From IMG/VR virus record IMGVR_UViG_3300025108_000038: DNA of 64,000 nucleotides. One strand, written 5' to 3'. The translations under genes were made by a program, and so were the position numbers. This DNA is from an uncultured virus (IMG/VR IMGVR_UViG_3300025108_000038). Its lineage: Duplodnaviria; Heunggongvirae; Uroviricota; Caudoviricetes; Crassvirales. Below the pieces are notes generated by a model. It saw only the letters and a program-made list of their open reading frames with translations, did no database searches and was not told the DNA's origin. The number at the start of each line of letters is the position of its first letter. Positions within the stretch are counted from its first letter, which is position 1. Below are positions 128 to 62,831 of this stretch, piece after piece.

Positions 128-131
128 ATAC

Positions 132-3657: not shown

Positions 3658-3679
3658 TAACCACTAACTAACGAAAATT

Positions 3680-3707: not shown

Positions 3708-3709
3708 GC

Positions 3710-3717
3710 TATCTTTG
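3710..3717 (+). promoter_or_regulatory. -7 promoter element TATCTTTG
   Basis: TAnnTTTG directly after the terminator; conserved at 63665-63672. Confidence 0.75.
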
Positions 3718-3750
3718 TACTTTATTAACCCATTAAAAACTTTTTATAAA

Positions 3751-4029
3751 ATGGCAAAATTTCTTAAAATTACAAATGCTCCAATTACAGGTCAATTAAT
3801 TAGTATTGACGGAGTTAAAGCTCTTGCTACCGCATCAGCTACAGCAACAACTGTAACAATTGATTACGTTGACGGAACTACAACTACAGTAACAACAGCA
3901 GCTCAAGTTGGTCAAGATGTTTATGATGCTATCATGGACGGAATAGAACAAGCTTTAGCTACATCTTGGCAAAAACCTTACTATGAGGTTTTATTACCAA
4001 AAGCTGTTACAAGTATTGTTAATGCATAA
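3751..4029 (+). CDS. Small Thr/Ala-rich virion protein, possibly capsid decoration (allele A)
   Basis: Start moved to ATG 3751 (MAKFLK) because the longer ORF would span a terminator and promoter; forms its own transcription unit. Confidence 0.6.
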   Translation: MAKFLKITNAPITGQLISIDGVKALATASATATTVTIDYVDGTTTTVTTAAQVGQDVYDAIMDGIEQALATSWQKPYYEVLLPKAVTSIVNA

Positions 4030-4055
4030 TAAGCAAATTAACTAACCAATACCTT

Positions 4056-4090
4056 AAGAGGCTACAAAAAAAAGTAGCCTCTTTTTTTTT
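4056..4090 (+). terminator. Intrinsic terminator
   Basis: AAGAGGCTAC-A8-GTAGCCTCTT plus T-run. Confidence 0.85.
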
Positions 4091-4092
4091 GC

Positions 4093-4100
4093 TATCTTTG
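4093..4100 (+). promoter_or_regulatory. -7 promoter element TATCTTTG (tail operon)
   Basis: TAnnTTTG 15 nt before ATG 4116. Confidence 0.75.
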
Positions 4101-4115
4101 TGAAAAGAATTAATT

Positions 4116-5093
4116 ATGCCTATAAATGAAGTACGAAATACTGTATTAGCCTTAGCCAATAAAAATAATTACGGATACATATCTCCAGCAGATTTTAATC
4201 TGTATGCTCAACAGGCTCAAATGGATATGTTTGAGGATTATTTTTATCAATACAATAATCAATTGCTTAAAGAAAATCTTAGACAATCAGGATCTGGTTA
4301 TGCTGATATATCAAAAGGTTTGGTTGAAGTTATTGATACTTTTTATGTAAACACTCCTTTATTAAATTCAGCAACAACACAGCTGGGTGGTATACAAACT
4401 AATTTGTATACACTGCCTTCTGATTATTATTTAATTAATAAAATGATGGTATATACAAAAGAGTTATCTGCAGGTACTACAACCTCAACCAATGGCGGAA
4501 GTGTGGCTGTAAACGACACTACAGCAGATTTTATTGCAGCAGGAGTAGAGCCTGGAGATATAGTTTCTACTATTACAGGGGGAGTGGTTTATAATACAGT
4601 AATTTCTCAAGTTGTTAGCGCAACAAATCTTTTGGTTTTTCCAACAGCTGGTGCGCTGGTGTGGAATGCTATAGGGAAAACATATAACATATATTCTGCT
4701 AATAATATTATAGAAGCTGAAAGAGTTGCTCAAAGTAAAATTACAATGTTAAACAATTCTGTTTTGACAAGACCAAATATTGGCTACCCTGCATATACAC
4801 AAGATGCTTTAGTGGCCCAAGCTTATCCAAATACAATAAATAAAATAGGTCAGTTTACATCTCAATATGTAAGGTATCCTCTTCCTCCGAATTGGACTTA
4901 CGCTTCATTATTAGGAGGAGAGCCTTTGTTTGATCCAACAGCTGGAGATTACCAAGACTTTGAATTGCCATTATCTGATGAGCCTATGCTTGTTGCTAAA
5001 ATATGTCAATACGTAGGGCTTGAGATAAGAGAGGCTGATGTATTAGCTTTTGGTCAAAATTTAGAAATAACTGAAAACCAACAACAATCATAA
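4116..5093 (+). CDS. Putative tail ring/adaptor protein
   Basis: 325 aa; first gene of the tail operon, crAss-like synteny. Confidence 0.5.
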   Translation: MPINEVRNTVLALANKNNYGYISPADFNLYAQQAQMDMFEDYFYQYNNQLLKENLRQSGSGYADISKGLVEVIDTFYVNTPLLNSATTQLGGIQTNLYTLPSDYYLINKMMVYTKELSAGTTTSTNGGSVAVNDTTADFIAAGVEPGDIVSTITGGVVYNTVISQVVSATNLLVFPTAGALVWNAIGKTYNIYSANNIIEAERVAQSKITMLNNSVLTRPNIGYPAYTQDALVAQAYPNTINKIGQFTSQYVRYPLPPNWTYASLLGGEPLFDPTAGDYQDFELPLSDEPMLVAKICQYVGLEIREADVLAFGQNLEITENQQQS

Positions 5094-15858: not shown

Positions 15859-15870
15859 TAATAAATATTT

Positions 15871-28924: not shown

Positions 28925-28953
28925 AAAAAAAGGGAGCGTAAACTCCCTATTTT
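28925..28953 (-). terminator. Intrinsic terminator, possibly bidirectional
   Basis: AGGGAG/CTCCCT stem flanked by an A-run and a T-rich tract. Confidence 0.75.
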
Positions 28954-28969: not shown

Positions 28970-29248
28970 TTAAAAAGGAAGCCCATCTCCTTCGTCCACT
29001 GCATTAGCTACAACCTTCTGCTCTGTCTTCTGCTCTGGTTTAAATGTATCAATGGCTACATAATGTGTTTTACCATATTGATCTGTTTCTCTTTTTTTCT
29101 GTACAATAAGTTTTACATACTTTTTGTTGTTGTACTCAAAAATCCAATCTTTTGGAAGATCTGACAAGCAAACAGATACTGCTACCTGGTCTCCGTCAAA
29201 TTTTTCTTTTCCACTTCCTACGTAAATTTTGTCTTTTACTTCACTCAT
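28970..29248 (-). CDS. Putative single-stranded DNA-binding protein
   Basis: Beta-rich 92 aa with acidic DEGDGLPF tail; downstream of recombination genes. Confidence 0.55.
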   Translation of the reverse strand: MSEVKDKIYVGSGKEKFDGDQVAVSVCLSDLPKDWIFEYNNKKYVKLIVQKKRETDQYGKTHYVAIDTFKPEQKTEQKVVANAVDEGDGLPF

Positions 29249-29432
29249 GTTTATTAATTTTAATTGTTTGCTCCATATAGCTAATTACAGATAACATAAC
29301 TTCAGTTTTATGCTCTGCACTATTACAAGACATTGGAACTTTTATCCATATAATAGTATTTTTCTTTGTTCTTTTTAGGTTTTTATAAAGTCTGCCTATG
29401 TATGTATGTATGTATGTCTTCAGTCGCTTCAT
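29241..29432 (-). CDS. Hypothetical protein
   Basis: 63 aa; overlaps the end of the exonuclease; start uncertain. Confidence 0.4.
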   Translation of the reverse strand: MKRLKTYIHTYIGRLYKNLKRTKKNTIIWIKVPMSCNSAEHKTEVMLSVISYMEQTIKINKHE

Positions 29433-30126
29433 TACTAAAATATTTTTGATACACTTCTACCGCTTGCTCAACTTTCTCCTGGCCTCCTTGTATAAATGAT
29501 TGAGAACATTCAAATATACCAAGTCTTGCAGTCCTTTTATCTATTACCAGGAATATTAATGGCTTTCCAAATAACCTTTGATATATGTAGGCTTGACTAT
29601 CGTAATTATAGGTTTTTGCACTATACATAAATTTATCGATATCCGAACTTGTTTTAATGTCAATAATTAAATTACTTTTATGATTTAAGATATCAGCCTT
29701 TCCCTTCCAATCTAAATTCATTATTTTTTGAATTTCTGGAACTTCGTAATCATTATTCTCTTCATAGATAAGATCAAACATTTCCATATTAGAAGTCATC
29801 TTAGTACATAAAAAATCTAATTGCTCTCTTTCTTTTGTAAGCAAAAGCATTTCCTCATTTGATTCAGCCAAAGCCTCTTTATATTTAGTAGTAGATCTTG
29901 TTGATGCTTCTACCTCCTGGAAGTCTCCTATTTTATGTGGCTCTAATATTTTGGTGTGGAAATATCTACCTTCAAGCATTGGCTTTGTAAATTCATTACT
30001 TACTCTAAACTGAGTAGGATTCTTTAATAACTTTCCTATGTCTGAGTTTGATAGATATTGCTGACCAAAATCTCCATAATATTTAGCATCGTCTTCCAGG
30101 TTTTTAAGTATGTCTGCTTTAGTCAT
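29383..30126 (-). CDS. PD-(D/E)XK RecE-like exonuclease (DUF3799-like)
   Basis: YLSNSDI, GRYFHTKILEP, KGKAD...IIDIKT, YDSQAYIY. Confidence 0.8.
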   Translation of the reverse strand: MTKADILKNLEDDAKYYGDFGQQYLSNSDIGKLLKNPTQFRVSNEFTKPMLEGRYFHTKILEPHKIGDFQEVEASTRSTTKYKEALAESNEEMLLLTKEREQLDFLCTKMTSNMEMFDLIYEENNDYEVPEIQKIMNLDWKGKADILNHKSNLIIDIKTSSDIDKFMYSAKTYNYDSQAYIYQRLFGKPLIFLVIDKRTARLGIFECSQSFIQGGQEKVEQAVEVYQKYFSNEATEDIHTYIHRQTL

Positions 30127-30739
30127 TTTTAAAGGATTTAGCTAATTCTTTTTTCACTACTGCTTTTATACTATACTTAGACTTAAGATTTTTTACTATC
30201 TTCTCTAAACCTAATTCTTTATTTTTTGATATGTAAGTTAAAACTTTAGCCCAATTCATATCTCCAATCTCTAATGTGATTAAAGTTTCAGTCTTTTGTT
30301 TTGTTGTGGTCTGTGTCTTTTTATGTTCCTGGATCTCTGGAATTATTAAAGTATCTTCATTTGCATAAAGACTTAAACCAAGGCCATGCATAGCAATAGC
30401 TTTTGCAGTTGCTCTTTGAATTGCAGTGTTAACGTCCATAGAAGTTATTTTGTCAACAGTAATAGAGTTATGCCTAAAATCTTTAATAGGTAAATAATCA
30501 ATATGCTCTATATCATTCACTATTATACCTACTTTTACATAGCCAGTCATTCCGTCAGAAAACCAATTCAAACCTGTTTCTTGCGCCTCATACACTATAC
30601 GTTGCGCTCCTGGGTTTGATTGTTTTAAATAGTTCCAGGCTATTGCCCAGGATAAATAATTAAAATTTCCTTTCTTTTTTACGTGCTTGGAAACATCTTT
30701 TGCAACCAATTCTTTAAAGTAATTTTCATTTTTGCTCAT
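30119..30739 (-). CDS. Sak/Rad52-like single-strand annealing protein (DUF1071-like)
   Basis: YLSWAIAW...VNTAIQRATAKAIAMHGLGLSLYANED. Confidence 0.85.
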   Translation of the reverse strand: MSKNENYFKELVAKDVSKHVKKKGNFNYLSWAIAWNYLKQSNPGAQRIVYEAQETGLNWFSDGMTGYVKVGIIVNDIEHIDYLPIKDFRHNSITVDKITSMDVNTAIQRATAKAIAMHGLGLSLYANEDTLIIPEIQEHKKTQTTTKQKTETLITLEIGDMNWAKVLTYISKNKELGLEKIVKNLKSKYSIKAVVKKELAKSFKND

Positions 30740-31139
30740 TTGTATTTAATTTTAGATTTAAATCTTTTATTTTGTTTGCATACTTTAATAGTATGGCTTC
30801 TCTTTTATTTTTTAAGTTCTGTATATGCTTATCGTTCTTTCGAGTGTTTACCTCTGTCTTTATCTTTGACTCAATTAGTTTTAATTTAAATAAGCAATTT
30901 TCAATGTTTAATTTTAAACAACCTATTATCCAACCATACTCATAAAAGAAATCATAATGATCACTTTCAATTACCTTGTAATAATCTCCATTTCTGTTTA
31001 GATCTAATATTTCAATCCTATCACTAAACTTTTGAATCTTTATACCTTTACTTAAAACACTTTCACCATAAGGCATATCTTCTTGAATGCTATTACTACA
31101 TGATTTAGCTTGAATAAAAACTTGGTTTAAATTATACAT
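30726..31139 (-). CDS. Hypothetical protein
   Basis: 137 aa in the operon. Confidence 0.6.
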   Translation of the reverse strand: MYNLNQVFIQAKSCSNSIQEDMPYGESVLSKGIKIQKFSDRIEILDLNRNGDYYKVIESDHYDFFYEYGWIIGCLKLNIENCLFKLKLIESKIKTEVNTRKNDKHIQNLKNKREAILLKYANKIKDLNLKLNTNEQK

Positions 31140-31434
31140 TATTATCTTTTAATATCTCCTGGACTAAATCATTAACATCGGTATCATTACTTATTAGATC
31201 TTTTGCTTTATTATATCCATGTATTATAGTTGAATGGGTTACCTTAAAATCATAGGTTTCCAAAAACCTTTGTATGTAAGATATTCTTATTGGTCTTTCC
31301 ATACATAAATAATATAGCATTTGCCTGGCATCTACTATATCTCCTCGTCTTGTAGAGGTAAACATTTCATCTAAAGTTAGATGAAACTTTTTTGCTACCG
31401 CAGTAGCATAGTCATCAAATATTTGTTTCTTCAT
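31132..31434 (-). CDS. Stand-alone DnaA domain-IV-like DNA-binding protein
   Basis: RRGDIVDARQMLYYLC...HSTIIHG matches DnaA R...IV.ARQIAMYL...DHTTV.H. Confidence 0.75.
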   Translation of the reverse strand: MKKQIFDDYATAVAKKFHLTLDEMFTSTRRGDIVDARQMLYYLCMERPIRISYIQRFLETYDFKVTHSTIIHGYNKAKDLISNDTDVNDLVQEILKDNNV

Positions 31435-31700
31435 TATTGATTAATTTTATTTAATTCAAATTGTAAATGATTTATAGCCTTCTGAAGATCTTCATTAGGC
31501 GTGTTATGTTTTCTGTATGCTCTTAAAATATAAGTACAAGCAGTTCCTAAATTATAATTCAAATCAAAATTATTCACAACATCTATTGCGGTGTAATTAT
31601 TTTTACCATCATAATAAGAAGGAGTGTCTACTTTAATAGTTTTATCTTCGGTACACTGAAGTTCGTCTGTCCTGGTTTCTGTATAATTCATATTAACCAT
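31434..31700 (-). CDS. DUF3310-like protein
   Basis: PSYY...AIDV...YNLG...YILRA..K...EDLQKA; probable start at 31691. Confidence 0.7.
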   Translation of the reverse strand: MVNMNYTETRTDELQCTEDKTIKVDTPSYYDGKNNYTAIDVVNNFDLNYNLGTACTYILRAYRKHNTPNEDLQKAINHLQFELNKINQ

Positions 31701-31795
31701 TTTATAAATTTATATAATTGAATAGCAATTAAGCAAGAGATCGCTCCAATGAATGACCATGCTACAAGTTTCATATTTTTATCTTCTCTTCCCAT
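31688..31795 (-). CDS. 35-aa single-pass membrane peptide (MGREDKNMKLVAWSFIGAISCLIAIQLYKFIKWLI)
   Basis: Manually translated; ATGA-coupled to the next gene. Confidence 0.5.
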   Translation of the reverse strand: MGREDKNMKLVAWSFIGAISCLIAIQLYKFIKWLI

Positions 31796-31797
31796 AA

Positions 31798-31986
31798 CTA
31801 AATACCTAAAGGATAATCGTCATCTTCCATAGTAGTAACCTCCTGGCTTGTATCCAAAGGATCTTCTTCATCATCATTAATGTTATTAATAATGTTTGAA
31901 CACATAGCCATGTGTATAGCGGTGTTCCTTGCTTGTGGGTTTTGAGGGTTGAATGACTCAAATAGCATTCGTAGTGTATCGTCCAT
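31798..31986 (-). CDS. Small acidic hypothetical protein
   Basis: 62 aa; first gene after the promoter at 32019. Confidence 0.55.
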   Translation of the reverse strand: MDDTLRMLFESFNPQNPQARNTAIHMAMCSNIINNINDDEEDPLDTSQEVTTMEDDDYPLGI

Positions 31987-32018
31987 AATTTGATTAAATT
32001 TTAGTTAAACTTAGTTCA

Positions 32019-32026
32019 CAAATATA
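32019..32026 (-). promoter_or_regulatory. -7 promoter element TATATTTG
   Basis: Intergenic TAnnTTTG on the minus strand. Confidence 0.7.
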
Positions 32027-32051
32027 GTGTAAAACAATTATAAATACTAAT

Positions 32052-32456
32052 TTAATCGTATATATTTACTTGTAAATTTATTTCCAGGTGTTCGTAATAC
32101 CTTCCTATTTCAGAGTGAACAACCTGGTCTTCTCCTATGCAAATTTGAAAAGCCTCCAGGCCTCTCTCTTCGAGATCATATAAAAAATCTTCAATTATTT
32201 TTACATCTGGATAAGGGCTATACCATTTCAGATCAAAGATACTTGTGTATATCATCATTCCGTCTTTTGTTTCTTTTAAAAGGGAAAATAAATCTGGAAA
32301 AACAAAACGCCTTTCAGAGTTTTGAAGTTTAAACAATCTTACCTTTTCTGTTTTTGGTATTCCTATTATTACTTGACTACTATATCCCATTGTTTTGCAT
32401 TTTATCAGCCCATATACAAGCCTGGTTATAAATTCCGTTATCATATTCTTGAACAA
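32052..32456 (-). CDS. Hypothetical early protein
   Basis: ORF; true start probably at the internal MGYSSQV. Confidence 0.55.
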   Translation of the reverse strand: MFKNMITEFITRLVYGLIKCKTMGYSSQVIIGIPKTEKVRLFKLQNSERRFVFPDLFSLLKETKDGMMIYTSIFDLKWYSPYPDVKIIEDFLYDLEERGLEAFQICIGEDQVVHSEIGRYYEHLEINLQVNIYD

Positions 32457-32589
32457 AGTCTACAAAGTCATTAAACCAGGATATTTGAGGTTTAATTTTG
32501 TTGATCTCGTTTGTTGCTTCTATAAAATCTCCCATTAGTTCGGTTATCTTATTAAAGTCTCTGTCTTTTTGTGTTTCCGCGTATGCCAT
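32380..32589 (-). CDS. Hypothetical early protein
   Basis: 69 aa, tightly packed. Confidence 0.55.
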   Translation of the reverse strand: MAYAETQKDRDFNKITELMGDFIEATNEINKIKPQISWFNDFVDFVQEYDNGIYNQACIWADKMQNNGI

Positions 32590-32594
32590 AATTA

Positions 32595-32819
32595 TTAATA
32601 TTTATTTTCTTGAGCGTATTCCCATACCTTGGTATTGAGATCATCGTTTACCCAATCCCAAAAAAAGTCTGTTATATCTACTCCGTTTAATTCTACATTT
32701 TCTATTTCTAAATCAGCTTCAGGAGGGTACTCATTATCTCCGTCATTCCAATAAAATTCGTAATTTATATCTAATTCATAGTTATCTTCAACTATTGAGT
32801 ATGTTCCTTTTGTTTTCAT
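32595..32819 (-). CDS. Acidic hypothetical early protein
   Basis: 74 aa; YPPEA..EIENVELNGVDIT. Confidence 0.6.
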   Translation of the reverse strand: MKTKGTYSIVEDNYELDINYEFYWNDGDNEYPPEADLEIENVELNGVDITDFFWDWVNDDLNTKVWEYAQENKY

Positions 32820-33109
32820 AAGTGGCCTCCGATTCTTAATTTTTCACATTCATACCTATACTCTGATTCTGACTCTACTTCGTTCATACCTTCCAAATCA
32901 TCTATTCCATTTCCAAGAACAAATTCTGATTCATTCATTTTATGCTCAAGATCGTCTATCCAATCCTCTTCCTTATAAATTATAAATTCATCTATACTTG
33001 TGTATTTACCATTGTCTATTCGATAATGATCAAATTCATTTTCATCAATATCTGTTTCAATTTCAGCAAATTTATGGTAGATCCGTCTTACTTGTATTTT
33101 TACCTTCAT
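32816..33109 (-). CDS. Acidic hypothetical early protein
   Basis: 97 aa. Confidence 0.6.
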   Translation of the reverse strand: MKVKIQVRRIYHKFAEIETDIDENEFDHYRIDNGKYTSIDEFIIYKEEDWIDDLEHKMNESEFVLGNGIDDLEGMNEVESESEYRYECEKLRIGGHL

Positions 33110-33111
33110 TA

Positions 33112-33777
33112 TTAATATTTTTTAGTTCTTTCAATTAAATTTAAAACATCGTGTATTTCTACTCCTTGGTATTTGCAATTATTTGTTATGAATTGCTTTA
33201 TAGGTAATTGCTTTGGATCATCAAAAAAGTCTCCTAATTTTTTACCGCTTTTAATTTGAGCATCAGCTAAACGCTTAATTACTCTTTTCACATACCAATT
33301 ACTTGTCCAATAGATACCGCCTTCTCCGTCTGTAATTTTTACATTGTCTCCAGGTTTGTTGGTAATATTTTTATCAGCCTTCCAGGTATTTTTCTTTTTA
33401 TCATAACCTATTATATGGCATAGAATATCCCTTAATTGTTTTACAGACAAATACTCAAATGTATTTTCGTAATGGTCTAATATTTCTTTTTCGCATCTGT
33501 CTTCAATACTTTTTATTAATTGATCAAACTTTGCGTGTCCATACAATTCTCTGTAAAAGTCTCTAAATTTTGTGTATTGAGTTTTTTCTCCAAACATTGT
33601 AAAGTTTGTATCATAATCTAAATCTTCAATGTCCAGGAATTTTACTTCTCCAAATTCCTGGTTTGTTAGGCCTCCGTTTACATGAGTCTCAAAGTCTAAA
33701 CCTTTTCCATTTGTGGTGTTAAACGTAAACCCAAATCTTACATAATCTGTGTGCTTCTGTGTTTTTAATAGTTTCAT
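33112..33777 (-). CDS. Hypothetical early protein
   Basis: 221 aa. Confidence 0.65.
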   Translation of the reverse strand: MKLLKTQKHTDYVRFGFTFNTTNGKGLDFETHVNGGLTNQEFGEVKFLDIEDLDYDTNFTMFGEKTQYTKFRDFYRELYGHAKFDQLIKSIEDRCEKEILDHYENTFEYLSVKQLRDILCHIIGYDKKKNTWKADKNITNKPGDNVKITDGEGGIYWTSNWYVKRVIKRLADAQIKSGKKLGDFFDDPKQLPIKQFITNNCKYQGVEIHDVLNLIERTKKY

Positions 33778-33799
33778 TTTATTTGATTTTATTTATTAA

Positions 33800-34201
33800 T
33801 TAATATGGTTTTAAATGTTCTGTGTTGTTCTCTCCGTTAAATCTTTCCTGGAATAATAATTTTTCTGTGTGATCTTCAATTATTCTTTCTTTATCCTCCA
33901 GGGTTATTCCTTCGTACTGATCAATTAAGCCTTCTAAATAGGCCTCGTTTTCCATTATGTCGCTACAATCTTTTGTATATGGATAATATGGAGCGATATA
34001 CGTACCGCCTCCGTTTCCGTCATTCCATATAACAACATTCATTTGATTTGTTTGCGCTTCATATCCAAGGCCTCTTCGAGTATTAAAATACCTTACGCTT
34101 CTTACTTTCAATTTTTCCGCAAATGCTTTTTTATCTAATGCGTTTCTTAATAACCTATCTGCTTCCAGGCTTACTATTTTTTCTTGTTCTTGCTCGCTCA
34201 T
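33800..34201 (-). CDS. Hypothetical early protein
   Basis: 133 aa; WNDGNGGGTY motif. Confidence 0.65.
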   Translation of the reverse strand: MSEQEQEKIVSLEADRLLRNALDKKAFAEKLKVRSVRYFNTRRGLGYEAQTNQMNVVIWNDGNGGGTYIAPYYPYTKDCSDIMENEAYLEGLIDQYEGITLEDKERIIEDHTEKLLFQERFNGENNTEHLKPY

Positions 34202-34203
34202 AA

Positions 34204-34485
34204 TTATAAATTTTTTCTTATTGCTTTATACTGCTCTACTTCTGATAATATTTGATACTTATAATGATTTGTACATATTAACAAGGCTATCTCTCTGATC
34301 CAATCCAGGTTACTCATTCTACAATTATCAACATCAAGTTCATAGAATTGTATTAAGTCTTCCCTTATATCAGCATACTCTATGTTAATGGTATCCTTTT
34401 CTTTACTCCTGGAAAGTTTATTTATCTCTCCTTGCATTGCCTCAATTCTGTGGCCTAAAAATTTAATGGTTTCGTTTTTGCTCAT
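34204..34485 (-). CDS. Hypothetical early protein
   Basis: 93 aa. Confidence 0.6.
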   Translation of the reverse strand: MSKNETIKFLGHRIEAMQGEINKLSRSKEKDTINIEYADIREDLIQFYELDVDNCRMSNLDWIREIALLICTNHYKYQILSEVEQYKAIRKNL

Positions 34486-34490
34486 AACTT

Positions 34491-34931
34491 TTAATTATAT
34501 ATTAATGATCCGTTTTCTGTAAATTCATATTCATTAGCCTCACAAAGATCCGTTAAACCTTCATCAGAATAAACATATTCAGTCTCCTGGTGTAATTGTT
34601 TCAATACATTATTTAGAGAATTGTTTTTCAATCCTTCAATTATTTCTTGATCCCAAAATGTACCTGTTAATTCACACTTATCCGCTTCCAGGCTATCCAA
34701 GGCCAATTGATCGTACTCACTAAACTTTATGTACTCGCCTCGGCATGGGCTTTGGCTGATTGAATAATCGTTTCTTCCGCCTATTTCCTGGCTTAATTTT
34801 TTTATACTATCAACTAACTCGTACACTGAAAATTCATTCAAGTCGTGAAAATTTTCTCTGATCCATTTAAAGCATAGTTCTTTGCCTGGGTGTTCGTGTA
34901 TCTGATAAACTTTTGTTTTAATTACTCTCAT
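34491..34931 (-). CDS. Hypothetical early protein
   Basis: 146 aa; EANEYEFTENG C-terminus. Confidence 0.65.
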   Translation of the reverse strand: MRVIKTKVYQIHEHPGKELCFKWIRENFHDLNEFSVYELVDSIKKLSQEIGGRNDYSISQSPCRGEYIKFSEYDQLALDSLEADKCELTGTFWDQEIIEGLKNNSLNNVLKQLHQETEYVYSDEGLTDLCEANEYEFTENGSLIYN

Positions 34932-34961
34932 TTTTTTTATATTTAATTAGATTAATTTTCT

Positions 34962-34992
34962 GCAATATAGTTATTATAAACATCTTGTGCAA
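34962..34992 (-). promoter_or_regulatory. Probable early promoter (TTG-20 nt-TATATTGC)
   Basis: Variant -7 box plus -33 TTG; resembles the 37652-37681 promoter. Confidence 0.5.
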
Positions 34993-35008
34993 GTTTTTTA
35001 AACTTTCT

Positions 35009-35269
35009 TTAATTTGAATTACCTAACCATTGGTGATATATGTAGTCATATTCTACATTCATTATTTCGGCAAGCGCTTCGAAAATTCTTTCCCTAACCA
35101 GGCTATCGCAAACGCCTATTAAGTCGTATATTTCTTGATAGTTGTCAAGGCATTCAAAAACCATTTTGAAATTTATATTGCTATCGATTTCCTGGCCTAA
35201 TTCATCTGTTGAATATTTGGCCAGGTAAAACGCTTTTACGTTGCTTGTCGCTCTTAATTTAAACTTCAT
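35009..35269 (-). CDS. Hypothetical early protein
   Basis: 86 aa. Confidence 0.6.
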   Translation of the reverse strand: MKFKLRATSNVKAFYLAKYSTDELGQEIDSNINFKMVFECLDNYQEIYDLIGVCDSLVRERIFEALAEIMNVEYDYIYHQWLGNSN

Positions 35270-35453
35270 CGGTATCCCATTTAGTTACTGGAAATGTTCC
35301 CTTGTATCCTAATTCAAGCGCTCTATCAAAACACATTCTTAATAAAAAAGGCCTACTCCAATTTTGATCCATTATAATTTTATTTATTTCCTTTAGATCT
35401 GATTTGTTAATATACTCTTGCGTGTATTTTACTCTTCGTTTATATGCTCTCAT
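35259..35453 (-). CDS. Hypothetical early protein
   Basis: 64 aa. Confidence 0.55.
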   Translation of the reverse strand: MRAYKRRVKYTQEYINKSDLKEINKIIMDQNWSRPFLLRMCFDRALELGYKGTFPVTKWDTDEV

Positions 35454-35728
35454 AACTTATTTATTTTACTTTCGATTATTACTTGTTCGTTTTGTTCACT
35501 TATGTTTATTAAATTATTTATTTCTTCGTGTATTTCGTCTTGTATCTCGAAGGGATAATTTCCTTCTTTATACTTTATAAATTCATTATTTATTAAAAAA
35601 TCTACAATTCTAATTGAGACATCTCGCGTGTCATCGTTTGTTATTGTTTCTATATTCATAACCTCTCTGTTACCACTTGTCATTAATTCTTTATTACCTA
35701 TTTTGATAATGTTAGACTTATACTCCAT
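35450..35728 (-). CDS. Hypothetical early protein
   Basis: 92 aa; N-terminus (MEYKSNIIKIGNK) resembles that of the next ORF (MKYTNQFIKIGNK). Confidence 0.6.
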   Translation of the reverse strand: MEYKSNIIKIGNKELMTSGNREVMNIETITNDDTRDVSIRIVDFLINNEFIKYKEGNYPFEIQDEIHEEINNLINISEQNEQVIIESKINKL

Positions 35729-35731
35729 AAC

Positions 35732-35998
35732 TTATTTATTTACATTAATAAAATAATTTGCGTACTTTCCTCGTTCACTGCAACAATTATAATACTCGTA
35801 CTCGTTTACCATTGTTTCAAACTTTTCAGAAGATCCGTTATTTAATAACATTGGGCTTGTCCAGGAATTATTTAACATCATATTGCAAGCGTTTAAATAA
35901 AGATCATGGCCTTTATCATATACTTTTTTAGCCTCTGTTTTATTTATTTGCTTTACTTGTTTGTTACCTATTTTAATAAATTGATTTGTATACTTCAT
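35732..35998 (-). CDS. Hypothetical early protein
   Basis: 88 aa; NEYEYYNC.SERGKY. Confidence 0.65.
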   Translation of the reverse strand: MKYTNQFIKIGNKQVKQINKTEAKKVYDKGHDLYLNACNMMLNNSWTSPMLLNNGSSEKFETMVNEYEYYNCCSERGKYANYFINVNK

Positions 35999-36012
35999 AA
36001 CTTTGGTATTAT

Positions 36013-36037
36013 GGGAGCGTTTCCGCTCCCTGGTTTA
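36013..36037 (-). repeat. GAAA-tetraloop intergenic cassette, copy 1
   Basis: TAAACCA-GGGAGCG-GAAA-CGCTCCC on the minus strand. Confidence 0.9.
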
Positions 36038-36039
36038 TA

Positions 36040-36204
36040 CTACTTAATTAAATTTCTAATCGCTGAAACTTCTATTGTTCCAAATTTATCGTGTACCTTA
36101 CATAAATACTCTTCGGCCTCAATAAATCGCGCTTCTGTTGTCGCGTTTTCGTATTGATTGCGGAATTTTATTAACTCCGTTATCTCTGTTTTTATCTTCG
36201 GCAT
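36040..36204 (-). CDS. Hypothetical early protein (MPKIKTEI...)
   Basis: Start moved to ATG 36204, overlapping the end of the upstream lipoprotein. Confidence 0.5.
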   Translation of the reverse strand: MPKIKTEITELIKFRNQYENATTEARFIEAEEYLCKVHDKFGTIEVSAIRNLIK

Positions 36205-36356
36205 CTTGTATATTTTTGGCGTTTTGCATTCCAACATTTTTTAGTATACATTTTCTTTTTATACTTTGACGTTTTACATTGCCTGGAGGCGCTACAACTT
36301 GTAAGCGTTGGCGTTGCAAATATTAAACAAATTACTATTGTGATTATTTTTTTCAT
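36192..36356 (-). CDS. Small cationic lipoprotein (54 aa)
   Basis: Manually translated: MKKIITIVICLIFATPTLTS-C-SASRQCKTSKYKKKMYTKKCWNAKRQKYTRCRR; signal peptide with LTSC lipobox. Confidence 0.7.
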   Translation of the reverse strand: MKKIITIVICLIFATPTLTSCSASRQCKTSKYKKKMYTKKCWNAKRQKYTRCRR

Positions 36357-36358
36357 AT

Positions 36359-36625
36359 CTATTGAAATTTAAATTCTCTTATTATTCTTGTTTGGTTTGT
36401 TGGGCTTGTGCTTGTTAACTTTACTACGTTGTAGCCTCTACAAGTATACGAGCGCTCCGCGTGTTCTTTGCCTCCTGCTCTTCTGAAGGCCTTAAGCGTT
36501 TCATCTTTAGTTATTAAATTATATTCGCGCTCTGTGATTTCTTCAACAAATGTAACACCAGGTAAAAACGTGGTTTTTGTACTTGGGTTTTTTTCTTGCT
36601 TTGTTCTTGTCATTGTGATAGTCAT
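36359..36625 (-). CDS. Hypothetical early protein
   Basis: 88 aa. Confidence 0.6.
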   Translation of the reverse strand: MTITMTRTKQEKNPSTKTTFLPGVTFVEEITEREYNLITKDETLKAFRRAGGKEHAERSYTCRGYNVVKLTSTSPTNQTRIIREFKFQ

Positions 36626-36641
36626 TTTTTTGCGGTATTGT

Positions 36642-36666
36642 GGGAGCGTTTCCGCTCCCTGGTTTA
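36642..36666 (-). repeat. GAAA-tetraloop intergenic cassette, copy 2
   Basis: Identical to copy 1. Confidence 0.9.
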
Positions 36667-36669
36667 TAA

Positions 36670-36915
36670 TTATATTGATTCAAAAATTATTTCTTCGGTA
36701 TCTGTATTAAAAAGTATTTGAAATACTTCTTCCCATTCTTCGGAAAGGTTTAAAACTATAATATCATCTTCGCAGTAATGAGATAAACAAACTTTATTTG
36801 TTAGCTCTAAATCTTCGCCATAACTTAAGGCGCTGAGGTCTTCAATCGTTACCAAATTTTTAGCCTCTAAAATTGCGCTTCTTTGGTCTTCTGTAAGTGT
36901 TTCAAATGTGGTCAT
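36670..36915 (-). CDS. Very acidic early protein
   Basis: 81 aa, Glu/Asp-rich. Confidence 0.6.
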   Translation of the reverse strand: MTTFETLTEDQRSAILEAKNLVTIEDLSALSYGEDLELTNKVCLSHYCEDDIIVLNLSEEWEEVFQILFNTDTEEIIFESI

Positions 36916-36929
36916 AAAATTAAATTTGT

Positions 36930-36954
36930 GGGAGCGTTTCCGCTCCCTGGTTTA
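36930..36954 (-). repeat. GAAA-tetraloop intergenic cassette, copy 3
   Basis: Identical to copy 1. Confidence 0.9.
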
Positions 36955-36957
36955 GAT

Positions 36958-37344
36958 CTATTTATTAAGTTTTGCATTTAGTTTTAAAATGTGGTACGCC
37001 ATAAAATTGAAATAGTTTTCAACTATTCGTTTTGTGGTGTTTTTTTCGTTTGGGTAGGTGTCAACTTCCTGGAGGCGTTTTGCAAGTTTTACAATATCAT
37101 CGTTATAAAATGGAATATTTAAAACCGAAGGAAGGCCAGCAAGCCAATGAGCAAACCGCGTTTGTTCGTTTGGGTGTCGTGCCTGGTTGAATCTGTGGTT
37201 AAATTCTGATTCATAACAAGACATAACAAAGGCCAATTTTTCCGCGTGTGTTGTTGCTTCTGTTGTGTGGTCGTCTGTATTGATTGCATCAAGCAAATAA
37301 TTTTGAATATTTGAAAGATATTTTTTTGAGTTTGTGCGTAACAT
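36958..37344 (-). CDS. Hypothetical early protein
   Basis: 128 aa; HWLAGLPS motif. Confidence 0.65.
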   Translation of the reverse strand: MLRTNSKKYLSNIQNYLLDAINTDDHTTEATTHAEKLAFVMSCYESEFNHRFNQARHPNEQTRFAHWLAGLPSVLNIPFYNDDIVKLAKRLQEVDTYPNEKNTTKRIVENYFNFMAYHILKLNAKLNK

Positions 37345-37358
37345 AGTTTTTTAATTGT

Positions 37359-37383
37359 GGGCGCATTTCTGCGCCCTGGTTTA
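37359..37383 (-). repeat. GAAA-tetraloop intergenic cassette, copy 4 (compensatory variant)
   Basis: TAAACCA-GGGCGCA-GAAA-TGCGCCC. Confidence 0.9.
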
Positions 37384-37385
37384 TA

Positions 37386-37616
37386 TTATTTTAATAAGTT
37401 TAAAAGCATTTTTAAGGTTTTAATTTCGTCTTCTAAATTACTGACAAGGTCAAAAACTCCGTTCGCTTCTAATTTTTCCGCGGTAAAATCTTCAGTTATT
37501 GCTTTTTCTGTTGGGTTTCCGAAATCAACTAAATTTTTAACCTCTTGCGCGTCTATTTTAATATTGTTTAACTGTCTTAAAACTTCGCTTTTTACTTTTA
37601 CTTGTATTGAATGCAT
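37386..37616 (-). CDS. First early gene, hypothetical
   Basis: 76 aa, directly after the promoter. Confidence 0.6.
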   Translation of the reverse strand: MHSIQVKVKSEVLRQLNNIKIDAQEVKNLVDFGNPTEKAITEDFTAEKLEANGVFDLVSNLEDEIKTLKMLLNLLK

Positions 37617-37651
37617 AATGTTAATTTATGGGTTAATGTTTATATTTTGTT

Positions 37652-37681
37652 CAAAGATAGTTTAATATTTAAGTTATACAA
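37652..37681 (-). promoter_or_regulatory. Main leftward (early) promoter
   Basis: TTG-19 nt-TATCTTTG, Bacteroidota -33/-7 consensus. Confidence 0.75.
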
Positions 37682-37869
37682 GCGTTTTTTTAAATTATAT
37701 ACTTGTTACAAATATCTTGAGCGTGTAACGTGCTGATAATGTGCAAGTTATAAACGTAATTTATAATCAATATAAATAAGAAACATTTAATATTTTAAGC
37801 GTTCGCGGAGGTATAACCTTCAATGTCTTGAAGTGTAAAAAAGATCTAATGTTAAAAGTTTAACAAAGG

Positions 37870-38012
37870 GATCTTCTCTTTCCTGGAGCAATGGAGCGCG
37901 CGAGCGGTGGAGAGCGTGCCAGGAGTAACCGCGGAAGGGCGAAACGTGGCGAGGCGGTACGGCCTCGGCGCGTGTTCCTGGTGCTGTGCTGTTGCTCGTA
38001 GCAAAACGCCAA
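37870..38012. other. GC-rich non-coding structured island at the strand switch
   Basis: Abruptly GC-rich; hairpins CGAGGC/GCCTCG and TTGCT/AGCAA; three CCWGG sites. Confidence 0.6.
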
Positions 38013-38145
38013 AACATTGGAAAAAATATTTTAGCATTTGATTTGACTTTTTTAAAAAAAATCGTTTTCCTTTTGGGGATCGTCAACGTATGTGTATGTA
38101 TTACCCTCAAGTTCTATATGTCTGAATAAAAAAAAATTTTTTTAG

Positions 38146-38153
38146 TATATTTG
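38146..38153 (+). promoter_or_regulatory. -7 promoter element TATATTTG
   Basis: TAnnTTTG before ATG 38178. Confidence 0.7.
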
Positions 38154-38177
38154 TTTTTTAACTAAAAGAATAATATC

Positions 38178-38390
38178 ATGCATAGCAAAAACTTAAACCC
38201 AAGAGACTTTGTTAACGGACTTTACGTGAAAGATGGAAGGTTAATAAACGATAGACCAGATTCAATGACTGGTATTCAAAAAGCAGCTTCTATAAAAAGA
38301 GCTGTAAAAAATGACCGCAAGGTTAACCAAATATCTGAAGCTATAGAGCTTGCTGATAACAAAAAACATTTCAGACAATTAAGATTTTAG
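38178..38390 (+). CDS. Small basic hypothetical protein
   Basis: 70 aa with its own promoter and terminator. Confidence 0.65.
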   Translation: MHSKNLNPRDFVNGLYVKDGRLINDRPDSMTGIQKAASIKRAVKNDRKVNQISEAIELADNKKHFRQLRF

Positions 38391-41137: not shown

Positions 41138-41575
41138 ATGGGAATGGGAGCTGGCCCTGGAGGTCGTAAAAATAAAACTGCTGCAAAAAAATCAGCGCCA
41201 AAAATGACTATGTTGGCTAAAAAATCTTTAGCTATTCAAAAAAAGAAATTAGCTAAATGTGCCGCCGCAGCAAAAGGCAAAGGCAAAAAATGTAGTCTTA
41301 AAAAAACTTCAAGACTTAGAAAAAATATAGCAGGATTAAACTCTACAGGAAAGACAAAAGCAAGAAGAGGAGTTGATAAAGGTGTAGAGTTTGGTAAAAA
41401 AGTAGCTAATTCTAAAACTGGTAAAATAGTTGGTGGAGCTATTAAGCTTGCAAAAAACATAAAAAACCTTGACTATAAAGGAGCTGCTAAAACAGTTTCT
41501 TCTACAGCTAAAGACGTTAAGAAAGCTAAAAAACTTATTAACTATAAAAAATTATTAAAAAAGAAAAAGAAATAG
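41138..41575 (+). CDS. Lys-rich basic protein
   Basis: 145 aa; K/A/G-rich, histone-H1-like composition. Confidence 0.65.
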   Translation: MGMGAGPGGRKNKTAAKKSAPKMTMLAKKSLAIQKKKLAKCAAAAKGKGKKCSLKKTSRLRKNIAGLNSTGKTKARRGVDKGVEFGKKVANSKTGKIVGGAIKLAKNIKNLDYKGAAKTVSSTAKDVKKAKKLINYKKLLKKKKK

Positions 41576-41576
41576 T

Positions 41577-41813
41577 ATGGCGGTAACAGATAAAAGAAGT
41601 AGGTTGCTTAAAAAAGCAGAAAGAAAAAGAAGACAAGCTCAAAGAAGAAAAGAAAGAGGTTGGCCTCAAGCCGCAAGAAGAAGCGAGCAAGAAGCATACG
41701 AGCTTAAAAGAGAAGCAAGAAATAGTTGTGGGAGAGGTCGTAAATCTGTTTACGGAGCAGGAGGAAGAAAAGTAGGTTGTTCCACTCGAAAAAGAAAAAG
41801 AAGAAGAAGATAA
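41577..41813 (+). CDS. Arg-rich, protamine-like protein
   Basis: 78 aa, ending RKRKRRRR. Confidence 0.6.
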   Translation: MAVTDKRSRLLKKAERKRRQAQRRKERGWPQAARRSEQEAYELKREARNSCGRGRKSVYGAGGRKVGCSTRKRKRRRR

Positions 41814-41831
41814 ACCATTAAATATATAATT

Positions 41832-42392
41832 ATGCCACAAGGAAAAGGTACATACGGAAGTAAAGTCGGAAGGCCGCCTAAAAAGAAAAAAATAGATCCA
41901 TCAAAATTAAAGAAAGGAAAAGCAGCAGGTAGAAAAATAAAAGATGGCCCTACTGGAAACCAGCGAATGAAAAAAAGAAAGAAGAAGCCAGTTAACACTA
42001 CTTCTGCTCCAGCAGGATACTCAAGAAGAACACGTATGAACATGGCAGCTAAAGAAGCTGTAGGAAGCAATTTAAAAATAAAAAAGAAAAAAACCAAAGC
42101 AGGAAAAGCAGGCTATGGCCCACAAGACAGACTTGGCACTATTGCTAAAAAGAAAAAAGTAAAAACTACTGGGCCAAGAAAGAAGGGAGTAGGCGTAACA
42201 AAAAAAGATAATGGAGGTGTAAAAAAAGCATTAAAAAAAGGTAAAGTAACAAAAGCTAAAACAAGCTCTAAGCCTCAAAACAAACGACAAGTTGCTTTAA
42301 AGAAACGAGCAGACGCGAGAGATAAAAAACCAAAAAAGGGAGGAAGAAAAACTCTTGCTCAGCTAAGAAAAGAAGGAAAAATTAATTTTTAA
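41832..42392 (+). CDS. Lys-rich basic protein with AT-hook-like GRPPK
   Basis: MPQGKGTYGSKVGRPPKKKK. Confidence 0.65.
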   Translation: MPQGKGTYGSKVGRPPKKKKIDPSKLKKGKAAGRKIKDGPTGNQRMKKRKKKPVNTTSAPAGYSRRTRMNMAAKEAVGSNLKIKKKKTKAGKAGYGPQDRLGTIAKKKKVKTTGPRKKGVGVTKKDNGGVKKALKKGKVTKAKTSSKPQNKRQVALKKRADARDKKPKKGGRKTLAQLRKEGKINF

Positions 42393-42403
42393 TATATATA
42401 ATT

Positions 42404-42679
42404 ATGCCAGATCCAGTAACTAAAAGGGTTAAAGACTCTTTAAAAAGAGTAAAAGTTAGAAAAAAAATTGTAAAAGATTCTACAAGTAGAATGGCTATGG
42501 TCAATGTCTTGAAAAAAGAATTAGGCAAAGAAAACTACAATAAGATTAGAACTACAAAAGGTGTAAAACAAGTTAAACTAACAAAAAAACAAAAGCAATA
42601 TATTAGTAGAATTAATCGTTTAGCTAAATCAGAACAAAAAAATAGAAGAAAAATTAACGATAATCCAAGAAAAAGATAA
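42404..42679 (+). CDS. Basic hypothetical protein
   Basis: 91 aa, K/R-rich. Confidence 0.6.
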   Translation: MPDPVTKRVKDSLKRVKVRKKIVKDSTSRMAMVNVLKKELGKENYNKIRTTKGVKQVKLTKKQKQYISRINRLAKSEQKNRRKINDNPRKR

Positions 42680-42685
42680 ATAGCC

Positions 42686-43513
42686 ATGAGTTGTAAAGGT
42701 TTAAAAGGCAAAGCTTTAGAAAGATGTAAGGCAAAAGCTAATTACGAAAAGCTAAAAAAAAGACATCCTAACATGACTAAACAGGATACTCTGTTGGTGA
42801 ACAGGTCTCTTTCTAAGAATGCTAAATTAGAAAATTTTACAAATAAAAAAATAGATGCTGCGGTTGCTTTAAAATTAAAAGAAAAAAAATTAAAGTCTCT
42901 TAAAGGCAGGAAAGCAGATGTGAATCTTATTGGTACAGCTAATGCTAAGTCAAGAAAAACCACTGTAAAGGTAACTCCAGGAAAAAAAGCTTTATTAAAA
43001 AAGAATAGAAGAAAAAGAAAGGAAGAGTATGTCTCTACTGCTGTTTATAATAAAAAAGAACTTGCAAGTAAGGTTACTTTATCAAAGAAAAAGAAAAAGT
43101 CTCAGAAAGAATTAGCGGCGGAAGTAAAAGCAAAAGAAACCAAAAAAAGCAACGCTGAAAAGAAAAAGAAAACTACTACTACAAAGAAAAAGCCTTATGT
43201 AAGAGGAACAGGAACAAGTAAGTTAACTAAAAAGAAAAAAGTAAATACTACTCAAAAACAAAAAACAGCTTTGGCTAATGCTAAAAAGAAAAGAACAGCA
43301 AAAAGTCAAGCTTCTATAAAAGCAAAAAAAGACGCTATAAGAAAAAAACTTCAGCGTACTACAAAACAGAAGTTAAAAGACACTGGTAAAAAAATAAAAA
43401 AAATATTTAAAAAGAAAACTCCTGCTCAGAAAAAAGCTAAGTTAGAAAAAAAGGTAAATAGAAAGCTTAATAGAAAAATGACAGGAAATAGATATAACGG
43501 AAAATGGAACTAA
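42686..43513 (+). CDS. Lys-rich basic protein
   Basis: 275 aa, roughly one third Lys. Confidence 0.65.
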   Translation: MSCKGLKGKALERCKAKANYEKLKKRHPNMTKQDTLLVNRSLSKNAKLENFTNKKIDAAVALKLKEKKLKSLKGRKADVNLIGTANAKSRKTTVKVTPGKKALLKKNRRKRKEEYVSTAVYNKKELASKVTLSKKKKKSQKELAAEVKAKETKKSNAEKKKKTTTTKKKPYVRGTGTSKLTKKKKVNTTQKQKTALANAKKKRTAKSQASIKAKKDAIRKKLQRTTKQKLKDTGKKIKKIFKKKTPAQKKAKLEKKVNRKLNRKMTGNRYNGKWN

Positions 43514-43534
43514 AAATTAATTTATAAATATTTG

Positions 43535-43542
43535 TATATTTG
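43535..43542 (+). promoter_or_regulatory. -7 promoter element TATATTTG
   Basis: TAnnTTTG upstream of ATG 43570. Confidence 0.65.
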
Positions 43543-43569
43543 TATTATTGATAACTTAAAATAAAAATT

Positions 43570-43758
43570 ATGAAACAAGGTTATAACGATAGATTAGATG
43601 AGTCTTTAGGATCAAGAAACGGAAAGAAGTCTCAATCTATGAAGTCTCGAAGAAACGAAAGTAAGGCTATGTCTAAAAAAATGTATGGTCATGCTTACGG
43701 AGGTAACAAATCAATGTCCTATAGACACGTTGCTAAAGTAGTTAAGCATAAGTTTTAG
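43570..43758 (+). CDS. Small basic protein
   Basis: 62 aa; QGYNDRLDESLG. Confidence 0.65.
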   Translation: MKQGYNDRLDESLGSRNGKKSQSMKSRRNESKAMSKKMYGHAYGGNKSMSYRHVAKVVKHKF

Positions 43759-43781
43759 TATTTTAATTTAAATTTATTCCA

Positions 43782-43937
43782 ATGGCAAAAAAGAAAGTAG
43801 TCAAAAAAGATGCTTCTAATAAAAAGAAGCCAGCAGTAAAAAAACCAGTGGACAAAAAAAAGGTTGTTGAGTTAGAGTTAAAAAGCTCAATTCAACAAGT
43901 AAATGTTTATCCAAAGTATAATCCTTTAAGAAAATAA
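43782..43937 (+). CDS. Small Lys-rich protein (51 aa, MAKKKVVKK...)
   Basis: Manually translated. Confidence 0.55.
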   Translation: MAKKKVVKKDASNKKKPAVKKPVDKKKVVELELKSSIQQVNVYPKYNPLRK

Positions 43938-62793: not shown

Positions 62794-62831
62794 TTACCCT
62801 CGTTATAATGACGAGGGTAATTATTTTTTTT
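62794..62831 (+). terminator. Intrinsic terminator after MCP (allele B)
   Basis: Same stem as 2833-2859. Confidence 0.85.

What the first reader, a model, noticed from the sequence alone, without database searches (positions are those of the whole stretch)
36013..37383. Four covarying GAAA-tetraloop cassettes punctuate the first early genes
Seen: on the coding (-) strand, TAAACCA-GGGAGCG-GAAA-CGCTCCC occurs identically at 36013, 36642 and 36930. A fourth copy at 37359 reads GGGCGCA-GAAA-TGCGCCC, with two base pairs changed compensatorily, so the structure is under selection. Each copy starts 2-3 nt after a stop codon and ends 14-16 nt before the next ATG. Each carries CCAGG at the stem base and has no U-tract in the sense direction, so it is not a normal terminator. 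Established analogues: lambda boxB GNRA-fold antitermination hairpins, N4 virion-RNAP hairpin promoters, and promoter/stem-loop cassettes linked to early-gene shuffling in T4-type phages. Inference: a modular gene-cassette array in which one element serves as an RNA processing, stabilisation or antitermination signal and as a homology point for swapping early genes, perhaps via the phage's Sak and RecE-like exonuclease.
Basis: partly seen in the sequence, partly recalled or inferred. Interest (0 to 1): 0.8.

Follow-up and report, generated by a model that had tools for sequence, protein, structure and literature searches.

The report
Hairpins standing in for phage ribozymes
Four copies of a small stem-loop sit just before the start codons of small, likely early genes of a marine phage, at the kind of gene junction where many relatives carry predicted self-cleaving ribozymes, so they likely mark where the long message is cut and its pieces protected.

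Summary
The phage is a ~60-kb marine Bacteroidota podovirus. The hairpin is fixed 13-17 nt before the next start codon (24 of 24 copies) but lies 5-32 nt after the stop. Among 53 family loci, 34 of 46 without it carry hammerhead-like ribozymes in the same arm, and 0 of 7 with it do. One relative has a hammerhead before the same gene. Best reading, inferred and without RNA data: a junction cap that segments and stabilises the early message. Gene shuffling is real but not concentrated at the hairpin (9 of 43 new junctions, versus 4 of 19 in the window). One repeat-to-repeat join exists. CCAGG is a region-wide bias. boxB, N4 and PeSL tests were not met or stayed inconclusive. The scan reported similar elements on other phage DNA before.

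The parts
37652..37659 (-). Bacteroidota-type -7 promoter box heading the small-gene array
   Evidence: Pattern scan. The same box lies before the first gene in 6 of 8 relatives examined, a variant in a seventh. Consensus as in PMC6847099. Activity not shown.
37386..37616 (-). gene A, 76 aa, no family; relatives carry a 44-49% identical allele or an unrelated gene here
37359..37383 (-). junction element 1: TAAACCA linker plus 7-bp stem (variant) with GAAA loop, 14 nt before gene B
36958..37344 (-). gene B, 128 aa, PHROG 11100 (unknown function); its homolog in L262 is preceded by a hammerhead instead
36930..36954 (-). junction element 2, 14 nt before gene C; cleanly absent in relative L054, which keeps both genes
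36670..36915 (-). gene C, 81 aa, no family; absent between the repeats in L066 and L191, replaced in L055
36642..36666 (-). junction element 3, 16 nt before gene D
36359..36625 (-). gene D, 88 aa, PHROG 16226 (unknown function); preceded by the hairpin in all 5 distinct upstream sequences from the clade, whatever gene lies upstream, and by a different hairpin in L261
36192..36356 (-). gene E, 54 aa, small protein with a hydrophobic N-terminus; no hairpin at its junctions
36040..36237 (-). gene F, up to 65 aa, no family (true start may lie further in)
36013..36037 (-). junction element 4, 14 nt before gene G
35732..35998 (-). gene G, 88 aa, no family
28931..28948 (-). context: the only sense-strand terminator-like site found in 28-40 kb, with a related GGGAG/CTCCC stem and a true U-tract
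29383..30739 (-). context: Sak annealase (30119-30739) and exonuclease VIII-like gene (29383-30126)

Best explanation
The element is a stem-loop repeated at four gene junctions that likely folds in the phage's long early mRNA and likely acts as a cap where that message is cut and stabilised. Shown by sequence: it lies a fixed 13-17 nt before a start codon, leaving the A-rich initiation region free, and it occupies the junction type that holds hammerhead-like ribozymes in many sister lineages. Inferred: one host-type promoter makes a long transcript; a host endonuclease cuts the A/U-rich unpaired linker between the stop codon and the stem; the stem then shields the new 5' end of the downstream gene's RNA (papBA-type). 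In uncut RNA it would also stall 3'-5' exonucleases and so spare the upstream gene. Occasional recombination between copies is a likely by-product.
For: (1) Structure: 91 of 91 cells paired in 13 clade sequences, 3 of 7 pairs change on both sides. (2) Strand: the G-U variant in L222 folds on the coding strand (-15.1 kcal/mol) and breaks on the other (-10.0, z -1.1). (3) Register: 13-17 nt to the ATG in 24 of 24 distinct clade copies, 5-32 nt from the stop. The bases after the stem fall on the -14 to -11 adenine motif of Flavobacterium initiation regions (PMC6847099). (4) Same slot: hammerhead descriptor hits in 34 of 46 family loci without the hairpin, 0 of 7 with it, none on the antisense strand; predicted cuts lie 3-33 nt before an ATG. 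Rfam Hammerhead_1 reaches its gathering score in 3 of 10 loci. L262 has a hammerhead directly before its gene B homolog (E 2e-5, below gathering). (5) The layout survives with other hairpins: L261/L067, L098, L115, L262 and six junctions of MW202828. (6) Precedent: tandem hammerheads cut prophage polycistronic RNA (PMC3088659); RNase E cuts upstream of protective 5' hairpins (PMC5927463).
Against: No RNA ends, reads or expression data were obtained, so cleavage is not shown, and no nuclease or cut site is identified. The 7 hairpin loci are one or two lineages (three are the window's own genotype; tree), so the exclusion of hammerheads is not independent replication. L262 carries both a junction hairpin and hammerheads. 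6 of 46 non-hairpin loci showed neither a hammerhead nor the bulged stem (two of them, L098 and L099, show hammerhead-like cores by eye). Rfam gave no gathering-level hammerhead in 7 further loci, 6 of which have hammerhead-like hits by my patterns, and did not recognise the L098 core variant. The element is optional: L054 keeps genes B and C without it. Most of the natural hammerhead leaders have no hairpin (36 of 42 unstructured).
Confidence: 0.55

Rival explanations
1. The hairpin works on the intact message only: it uncouples translation of neighbouring genes (ribosome termination structure) or keeps the downstream initiation region free, without any cut.
For: The stem begins 9-10 nt after the stop in all four window copies, near where such structures lie (PMC7518266). 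Flavobacterium initiation depends on unstructured A-rich leaders. Most other junctions in the arm are tightly coupled.
Against: Spacing to the stop varies from 5 to 32 nt while spacing to the start does not. Removing the stem in silico changed predicted accessibility of the start region clearly in only 1 of 4 cases (0.83 vs 0.65; others 0.64/0.59, 0.84/0.86, 0.47/0.44). It does not explain why relatives use cutting ribozymes at such junctions.
Confidence: 0.2
2. The hairpin is a pause or partial terminator (PeSL-type attenuator) that steps transcription down along the early operon.
For: PeSL stem-loops with G and C tracts terminated in a reporter (PMC2839356). The phage's one clear terminator in the arm has a related stem.
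Against: No sense U-tract: 1-5 T in the next 8 nt, 4 or fewer in 23 of 24 copies. No promoter box within the four junctions on the coding strand to restart transcription, so four terminators in series would starve downstream genes.
Confidence: 0.1
3. The repeat is kept mainly as a homology point for Sak and exonuclease to swap early genes.
For: In L066 and L191 one hairpin aligns with both copy 2 and copy 3, with gene C absent. The same hairpin-plus-leader precedes different genes. Sak and exonuclease are present.
Against: 9 of 43 junctions not found in the window carry the hairpin, versus 4 of 19 in the window, although several relatives were found through the motif. Compensatory changes keep pairing at the cost of identity. 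Several relatives have one copy in the stretch held.
Confidence: 0.06
4. The hairpin is a protein-binding site, like lambda boxB, that recruits an antitermination or other phage factor.
For: GAAA loop is invariant in 13 of 13 aligned clade copies; two five-base GNRNA loops occur (L146, L262).
Against: No boxA match within one mismatch on the coding strand in 36460-38000; the one match at 36447-36454 lies inside gene D. No N-like protein annotated. Equivalent hairpins in relatives have unrelated loops.
Confidence: 0.05
5. The element acts on the other strand or as DNA: an antisense terminator, or an N4-type template hairpin promoter.
For: The + strand reads stem plus 5 T in 8 for three copies. 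Both DNA strands can fold (-8.7 to -9.9 kcal/mol). A + strand -7-like box lies at 35998.
Against: The L222 variant mispairs on the + strand. The T-run is interrupted by GG in every copy. Spacing is set by the coding-strand start codon. No RNA polymerase was recognised in the large virion proteins by sequence.
Confidence: 0.04

Closest known systems
Clustered hammerhead ribozymes flanking genes in phages and prophages (Perreault et al. 2011, PMC3088659; passages read)
   Same: Repeated RNA elements at junctions of small variable genes, proposed to cut a long transcript into gene-sized pieces; sister lineages of this phage carry type I hammerheads at such junctions.
   Different: The window's element has no catalytic core; any cut would need a host enzyme.
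papBA-type RNase E cut plus 5' protective hairpin, and intercistronic stem-loops in selective RNA processing and stabilisation (PMC5927463 passages; PMC4423207 abstract)
   Same: A stable hairpin between genes with an unpaired A/U-rich stretch upstream, able to protect either neighbour.
   Different: Here it is one short sequence repeated four times in a phage, intergenic and in fixed register with a Shine-Dalgarno-free start; the cut is not shown.
PeSL cassettes of T4-type phages (Arbiol 2010, PMC2839356 passages; Comeau 2014, PMC4122927 first third)
   Same: Intergenic G/C-tract stem-loops repeated in a variable early region; repeat-to-repeat gene loss occurs.
   Different: PeSLs span about 100 bp and contain a promoter and a Shine-Dalgarno sequence; this element is 25 nt with neither, and shuffling is not concentrated at it.
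RiboJ synthetic insulator (described in PMC7536230, passages)
   Same: Hammerhead followed by a hairpin ahead of the ribosome-binding region; relative L098 has this layout naturally, and the window's element looks like its 3' half.
   Different: RiboJ is engineered; the window has no ribozyme half, and the L098 core has a non-standard pair at the base of stem II.
Ribosome termination structure (Chemla et al. 2020, PMC7518266; passages)
   Same: Stable fold just after a stop codon at junctions longer than 25 nt.
   Different: That paper found no general sequence motif, and it ties the structure to the stop codon; this one is a repeat tied to the next start.

Membership tests
PeSL (T4-type promoter-early stem-loop) | Promoter -35/-10 (or host equivalent) inside each cassette | tested here: not met
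   No sigma-70-like site and no Bacteroidota -7 box lies inside any of the four junctions on the coding strand.
PeSL (T4-type promoter-early stem-loop) | Stem-loop terminates transcription | not testable with these tools
   No sense U-tract; needs a reporter or in vitro transcription.
PeSL (T4-type promoter-early stem-loop) | Gene gain or loss by recombination between cassettes | tested here: inconclusive
   One repeat-to-repeat join in two relatives; no enrichment overall; no joints in contigs of four DNA runs, which drop rare variants.
Lambda nut site (boxA + boxB, N protein) | boxA upstream of the hairpin (consensus recalled) | tested here: not met
   no match with up to one mismatch on the coding strand between the promoter and copy 3; one inside gene D; 20 in the window against 36 expected.
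Lambda nut site (boxA + boxB, N protein) | Five-base GNRNA loop bound by an arginine-rich N protein (recalled) | tested here: not met
   Four-base GAAA loop in all window copies; no N-like family among 59 ORFs scanned, though small basic ORFs remain unassigned.
N4 virion-RNAP hairpin promoter | Purine-loop hairpin on the template strand (recalled) | tested here: not met
   GAAA loop is on the coding strand; the template strand reads TTTC.
N4 virion-RNAP hairpin promoter | Virion-packaged RNA polymerase gene | tested here: inconclusive
   The 2309-aa and 674-aa proteins match nothing in Pfam or the PDB by sequence; no fold search was run.
Intrinsic terminator | U-tract directly after the stem on the transcribed strand | tested here: not met
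Hammerhead ribozyme | Catalytic core and three stems | tested here: not met
   No Rfam hit in the window; descriptor finds none on either strand.
Intercistronic processing/stabilising stem-loop | Stable hairpin between co-oriented genes without a U-tract | tested here: met
Intercistronic processing/stabilising stem-loop | Processed RNA ends at the element and unequal stability of flanking genes | not tested
   No RNA data were examined; the RNA runs listed are contigs with small shares, which cannot show ends.

The most novel reading that the evidence does not exclude
Early-gene junctions in this phage family are interchangeable sockets for RNA-cutting parts: a hammerhead, a long bulged stem or a bare hairpin. 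The bare hairpin is the surviving 3' half of a natural RiboJ-like hammerhead cassette (intermediate seen in L098) that handed cleavage over to a host nuclease. The same minimal design also arose in unrelated viruses.
Probability: 0.2. Interest if true: 0.7.

Novelty: new variant of a known kind. Interest (0 to 1): 0.45.

Why it matters
What hammerhead ribozymes do in phages is still unsettled (PMC6765202, passage). A family in which some lineages use ribozymes and another uses a plain hairpin in fixed register with the start codon shows which outcome is being selected, and suggests a direct swap test. A cultured relative, Flavobacterium phage elemoA, has hammerhead-like cores in its small-gene region, so the test is feasible. 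The 25-nt element could also serve as a compact expression part for Bacteroidota, which do not use Shine-Dalgarno sequences.

Tried and rejected
Rfam: nothing meaningful in 33-39 kb at E up to 10 or in the whole window at gathering. Nothing for the MW202828 hairpins or the bulged-stem elements of L129. GenBank phages: no DNA match for 34400-38200. Host repeat: 3 of 61 GTDB matches had a fully paired stem; one is a contig of this clade, the other two are not at gene junctions. Repeat-to-repeat joints or circles: none in contigs of four DNA runs, which is no proof of absence. CCAGG as part of the signal: rejected, since it is enriched across the arm and missing from the L261 and L146a elements. 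RNase P or tRNA-like substrate: considered; the 3' side reads ACAA or ATAA rather than a CCA end (requirement recalled). Virion RNA polymerase: no sequence evidence. Whether AAACCA is preferred upstream of such hairpins outside this family stays open, because my collection patterns fixed it. Literature searches found no paper describing this element.

Full report
Observation. The 25-mer lies on the - strand at 36013, 36642 and 36930, and the variant with two compensatory pairs at 37359. The motif starts 2-3 nt after a stop, and the stems end 14, 14, 16 and 14 nt before the next ATG. Each folds as an isolated 7-bp hairpin with z-scores near -4. Chance does not give this: 991 of 1000 resamplings of the region had no such hairpin and none had more than one.

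Setting. The window is nearly the whole of a 64,494-base contig. It encodes terminase, portal, virion proteins, GroEL/GroES, a helicase, Sak and an exonuclease VIII-like protein. The terminase is 71.5% identical to MW202828 and 46% to the Flavobacterium elemo phages, with Cellulophaga and Tenacibaculum phages further off. Runs holding the region are mostly marine metagenomes. A Bacteroidota -7 box at 37659-37652 heads the small-gene array and is kept in 6 of 8 relatives examined (consensus in PMC6847099, first part of Results). 'Early' is inferred from this layout; no time course exists.

Spread and covariation. The exact motif occurs in 10 IMG/VR contigs, four of them nearly identical to the window. 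With the four inner pairs left free, 16 of 18 contigs had fully paired stems: 12 of this clade and 4 of other viruses. In a partial metagenome scan (13 of 64 parts), 11 of 113 distinct matches were fully Watson-Crick paired, against about 0.4 by chance; 7 were this clade and 4 were not, and all 11 lay between a stop and a start. In GTDB only 3 of 61 were, one being a clade contig inside a Saprospiraceae bin, so this is not a host repeat. On 13 clade copies (the five-base-loop copy of L146 left out because it misaligned), 91 of 91 cells pair and 3 of 7 pairs change on both sides. These come from four stem types, so few independent events. The G-U variant folds well only on the coding strand.

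Register. In 24 of 24 distinct clade copies the stem ends 13-17 nt before an ATG, while the distance from the stop is 5-32 nt. The bases after the stem cover the adenine-rich -14 to -11 motif described for Flavobacterium initiation regions. The element therefore belongs with the downstream start. Gene D keeps it whichever of three genes lies upstream.

What relatives have at such junctions. I fetched 80 of 269 loci around a family marker gene and analysed the 53 with more than 4.5 kb on the relevant side. A hammerhead descriptor hit 34 of the 46 loci without the hairpin and 0 of the 7 with it, and never the antisense strand; predicted cuts lie 3-33 nt before an ATG, and 36 of 42 leaders are unstructured. 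Rfam confirmed Hammerhead_1 at gathering level in 3 of 10 loci, below gathering in L262 (E 2e-5), and not at gathering in 7 others. The L262 hammerhead sits directly before the gene B homolog, where the window has copy 1. Other lineages use different hairpins in the same layout: L261/L067 before the gene D homolog (found by the covariance model at 35 bits), L115, and six junctions of MW202828 with a TTAA loop. L098 has a hammerhead-like core followed by the same kind of linker, a hairpin and an A-rich leader, though its core is non-standard and Rfam missed it. A third type, a long bulged stem, fills junctions in L062, L067, L070, L112 and L129. The 7 hairpin loci form one or two lineages on the marker tree, so the pattern is suggestive rather than statistically independent, and L262 has both kinds.

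Mechanism. Shown: structure, strand, register and slot. Inferred: a long transcript is cut by a host endonuclease in the unpaired A/U-rich linker, and the stem protects the new 5' end, as for papBA and similar E. coli operons (PMC5927463, passages). The stem would also block 3'-5' decay into the upstream gene (PMC4423207, abstract). Perreault et al. showed that tandem prophage hammerheads cut polycistronic RNA in vitro (passages), and a review calls the purpose unresolved (PMC6765202, passages). I put this reading at 0.55. The main rival is a cut-free translational insulator (PMC7518266, passages), but folding with the stem removed changed start-region accessibility in only 1 of 4 cases. No RNA evidence was obtained.

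Shuffling. Gene order does vary. In L066 and L191 a single hairpin joins gene B to gene D, matching both copies 2 and 3, which fits loss or gain of gene C through the repeat. L054 lacks only the hairpin between B and C. Across 12 clade sequences there are 62 distinct gene adjacencies; 4 of the window's 19 and 9 of the other 43 carry the hairpin (four of the 43 lie outside the window's range or reflect ORF calling, giving 9 of 39). Several of these relatives were found through the motif, which favours hairpin junctions, so there is no sign that swapping needs it. Four DNA runs showed no joints, with the limits of contigs.

Comparison with known kinds. It is not a PeSL (no internal promoter; PMC2839356 passages; PMC4122927 first third), not a nut site, not an N4-type promoter by strand, and not an intrinsic terminator on the sense strand. 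It works most like an intercistronic processing or stabilising stem-loop. Rfam has no family for it, and searches found no description; PMC2864571 (passages) lists nothing that I could match. Large catalogues of phage RNA motifs that I recall were not searched and may hold it in supplements.

Earlier scan notes. None overlapped this DNA. Word search returned notes on other phages with hairpins in hammerhead slots. My reading was written down before that, and those notes are not independent support.

Verdict. A real, conserved element; a new variant of a known kind; interest 0.45. The value lies in the family-level contrast between ribozyme and plain hairpin, which can be tested in a cultured host.

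Noticed in passing
window 29000-38100: CCWGG is strongly enriched in this arm (46 sites, about 10.6 expected from the rest of the genome). 46 of 54 CCAG and 46 of 50 CAGG are part of CCAGG, against 34 of 157 and 34 of 136 in 1-23000. The bias is shared by L065 and by the unrelated virus L028, and absent in L057 and L050. No methyltransferase was found among 59 ORFs. CCWGG is the class 2 DISARM methylation motif (bioRxiv 2021.12.28.474362, passage); a link to host methylation is a guess.
   Followed up: partly
whole window; 36000-38100: CTAG and CCGG never occur in the window (about 280 and 47 expected, both strands counted). CGCG is concentrated in 36-38 kb (13 sites, under 1 expected).
   Followed up: no
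window 1-4539 and 59989 to the contig end: The contig's end repeats its start at only 80% identity over 4.5 kb, so the assembly is probably a chimera of two related phages around the capsid genes; true genome about 60 kb.
   Followed up: partly
window 37830-38060: GC-rich non-coding block upstream of the early promoter that folds strongly on both strands (-63.5 and -77.2 kcal/mol, no shuffle control); kept in close relatives; possibly an origin, packaging site or RNA.
   Followed up: no
L062 10705-10801, L129 14260-15641, L070 14226-14609, L067 13060-13141, L112 15012-15122: A recurring long bulged stem ending in a GTGGTA motif, often followed by a small hairpin, fills gene junctions in relatives; no Rfam match. 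It resembles an RNase III site (recalled).
   Followed up: partly
L050 (MW202828.1) 14475-19907: Six copies of a different junction hairpin with a TTAA loop, 15-23 nt before start codons; no Rfam match.
   Followed up: partly
L340 (NC_055852.1, elemoA) about 17270-17350 and 19070-19110, - strand: Two hammerhead-like cores in the small-gene region of a cultured phage; the first overlaps an annotated short opposite-strand ORF, the second has no clear stem III; below Rfam gathering score.
   Followed up: partly
L316 924-968: A 6.6-kb contig of this phage clade lies in a Saprospiraceae metagenome bin; a weak host hint, possibly misbinned.
   Followed up: no
window 2833-2859 and 62794-62820: A 10-bp hairpin with an A/T tail follows the likely capsid gene in both copies of the overlap; probably an ordinary terminator.
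   Followed up: no
window 41138-43937: A run of very lysine-rich ORFs follows the GroEL/GroES genes; not scanned against families.
   Followed up: no
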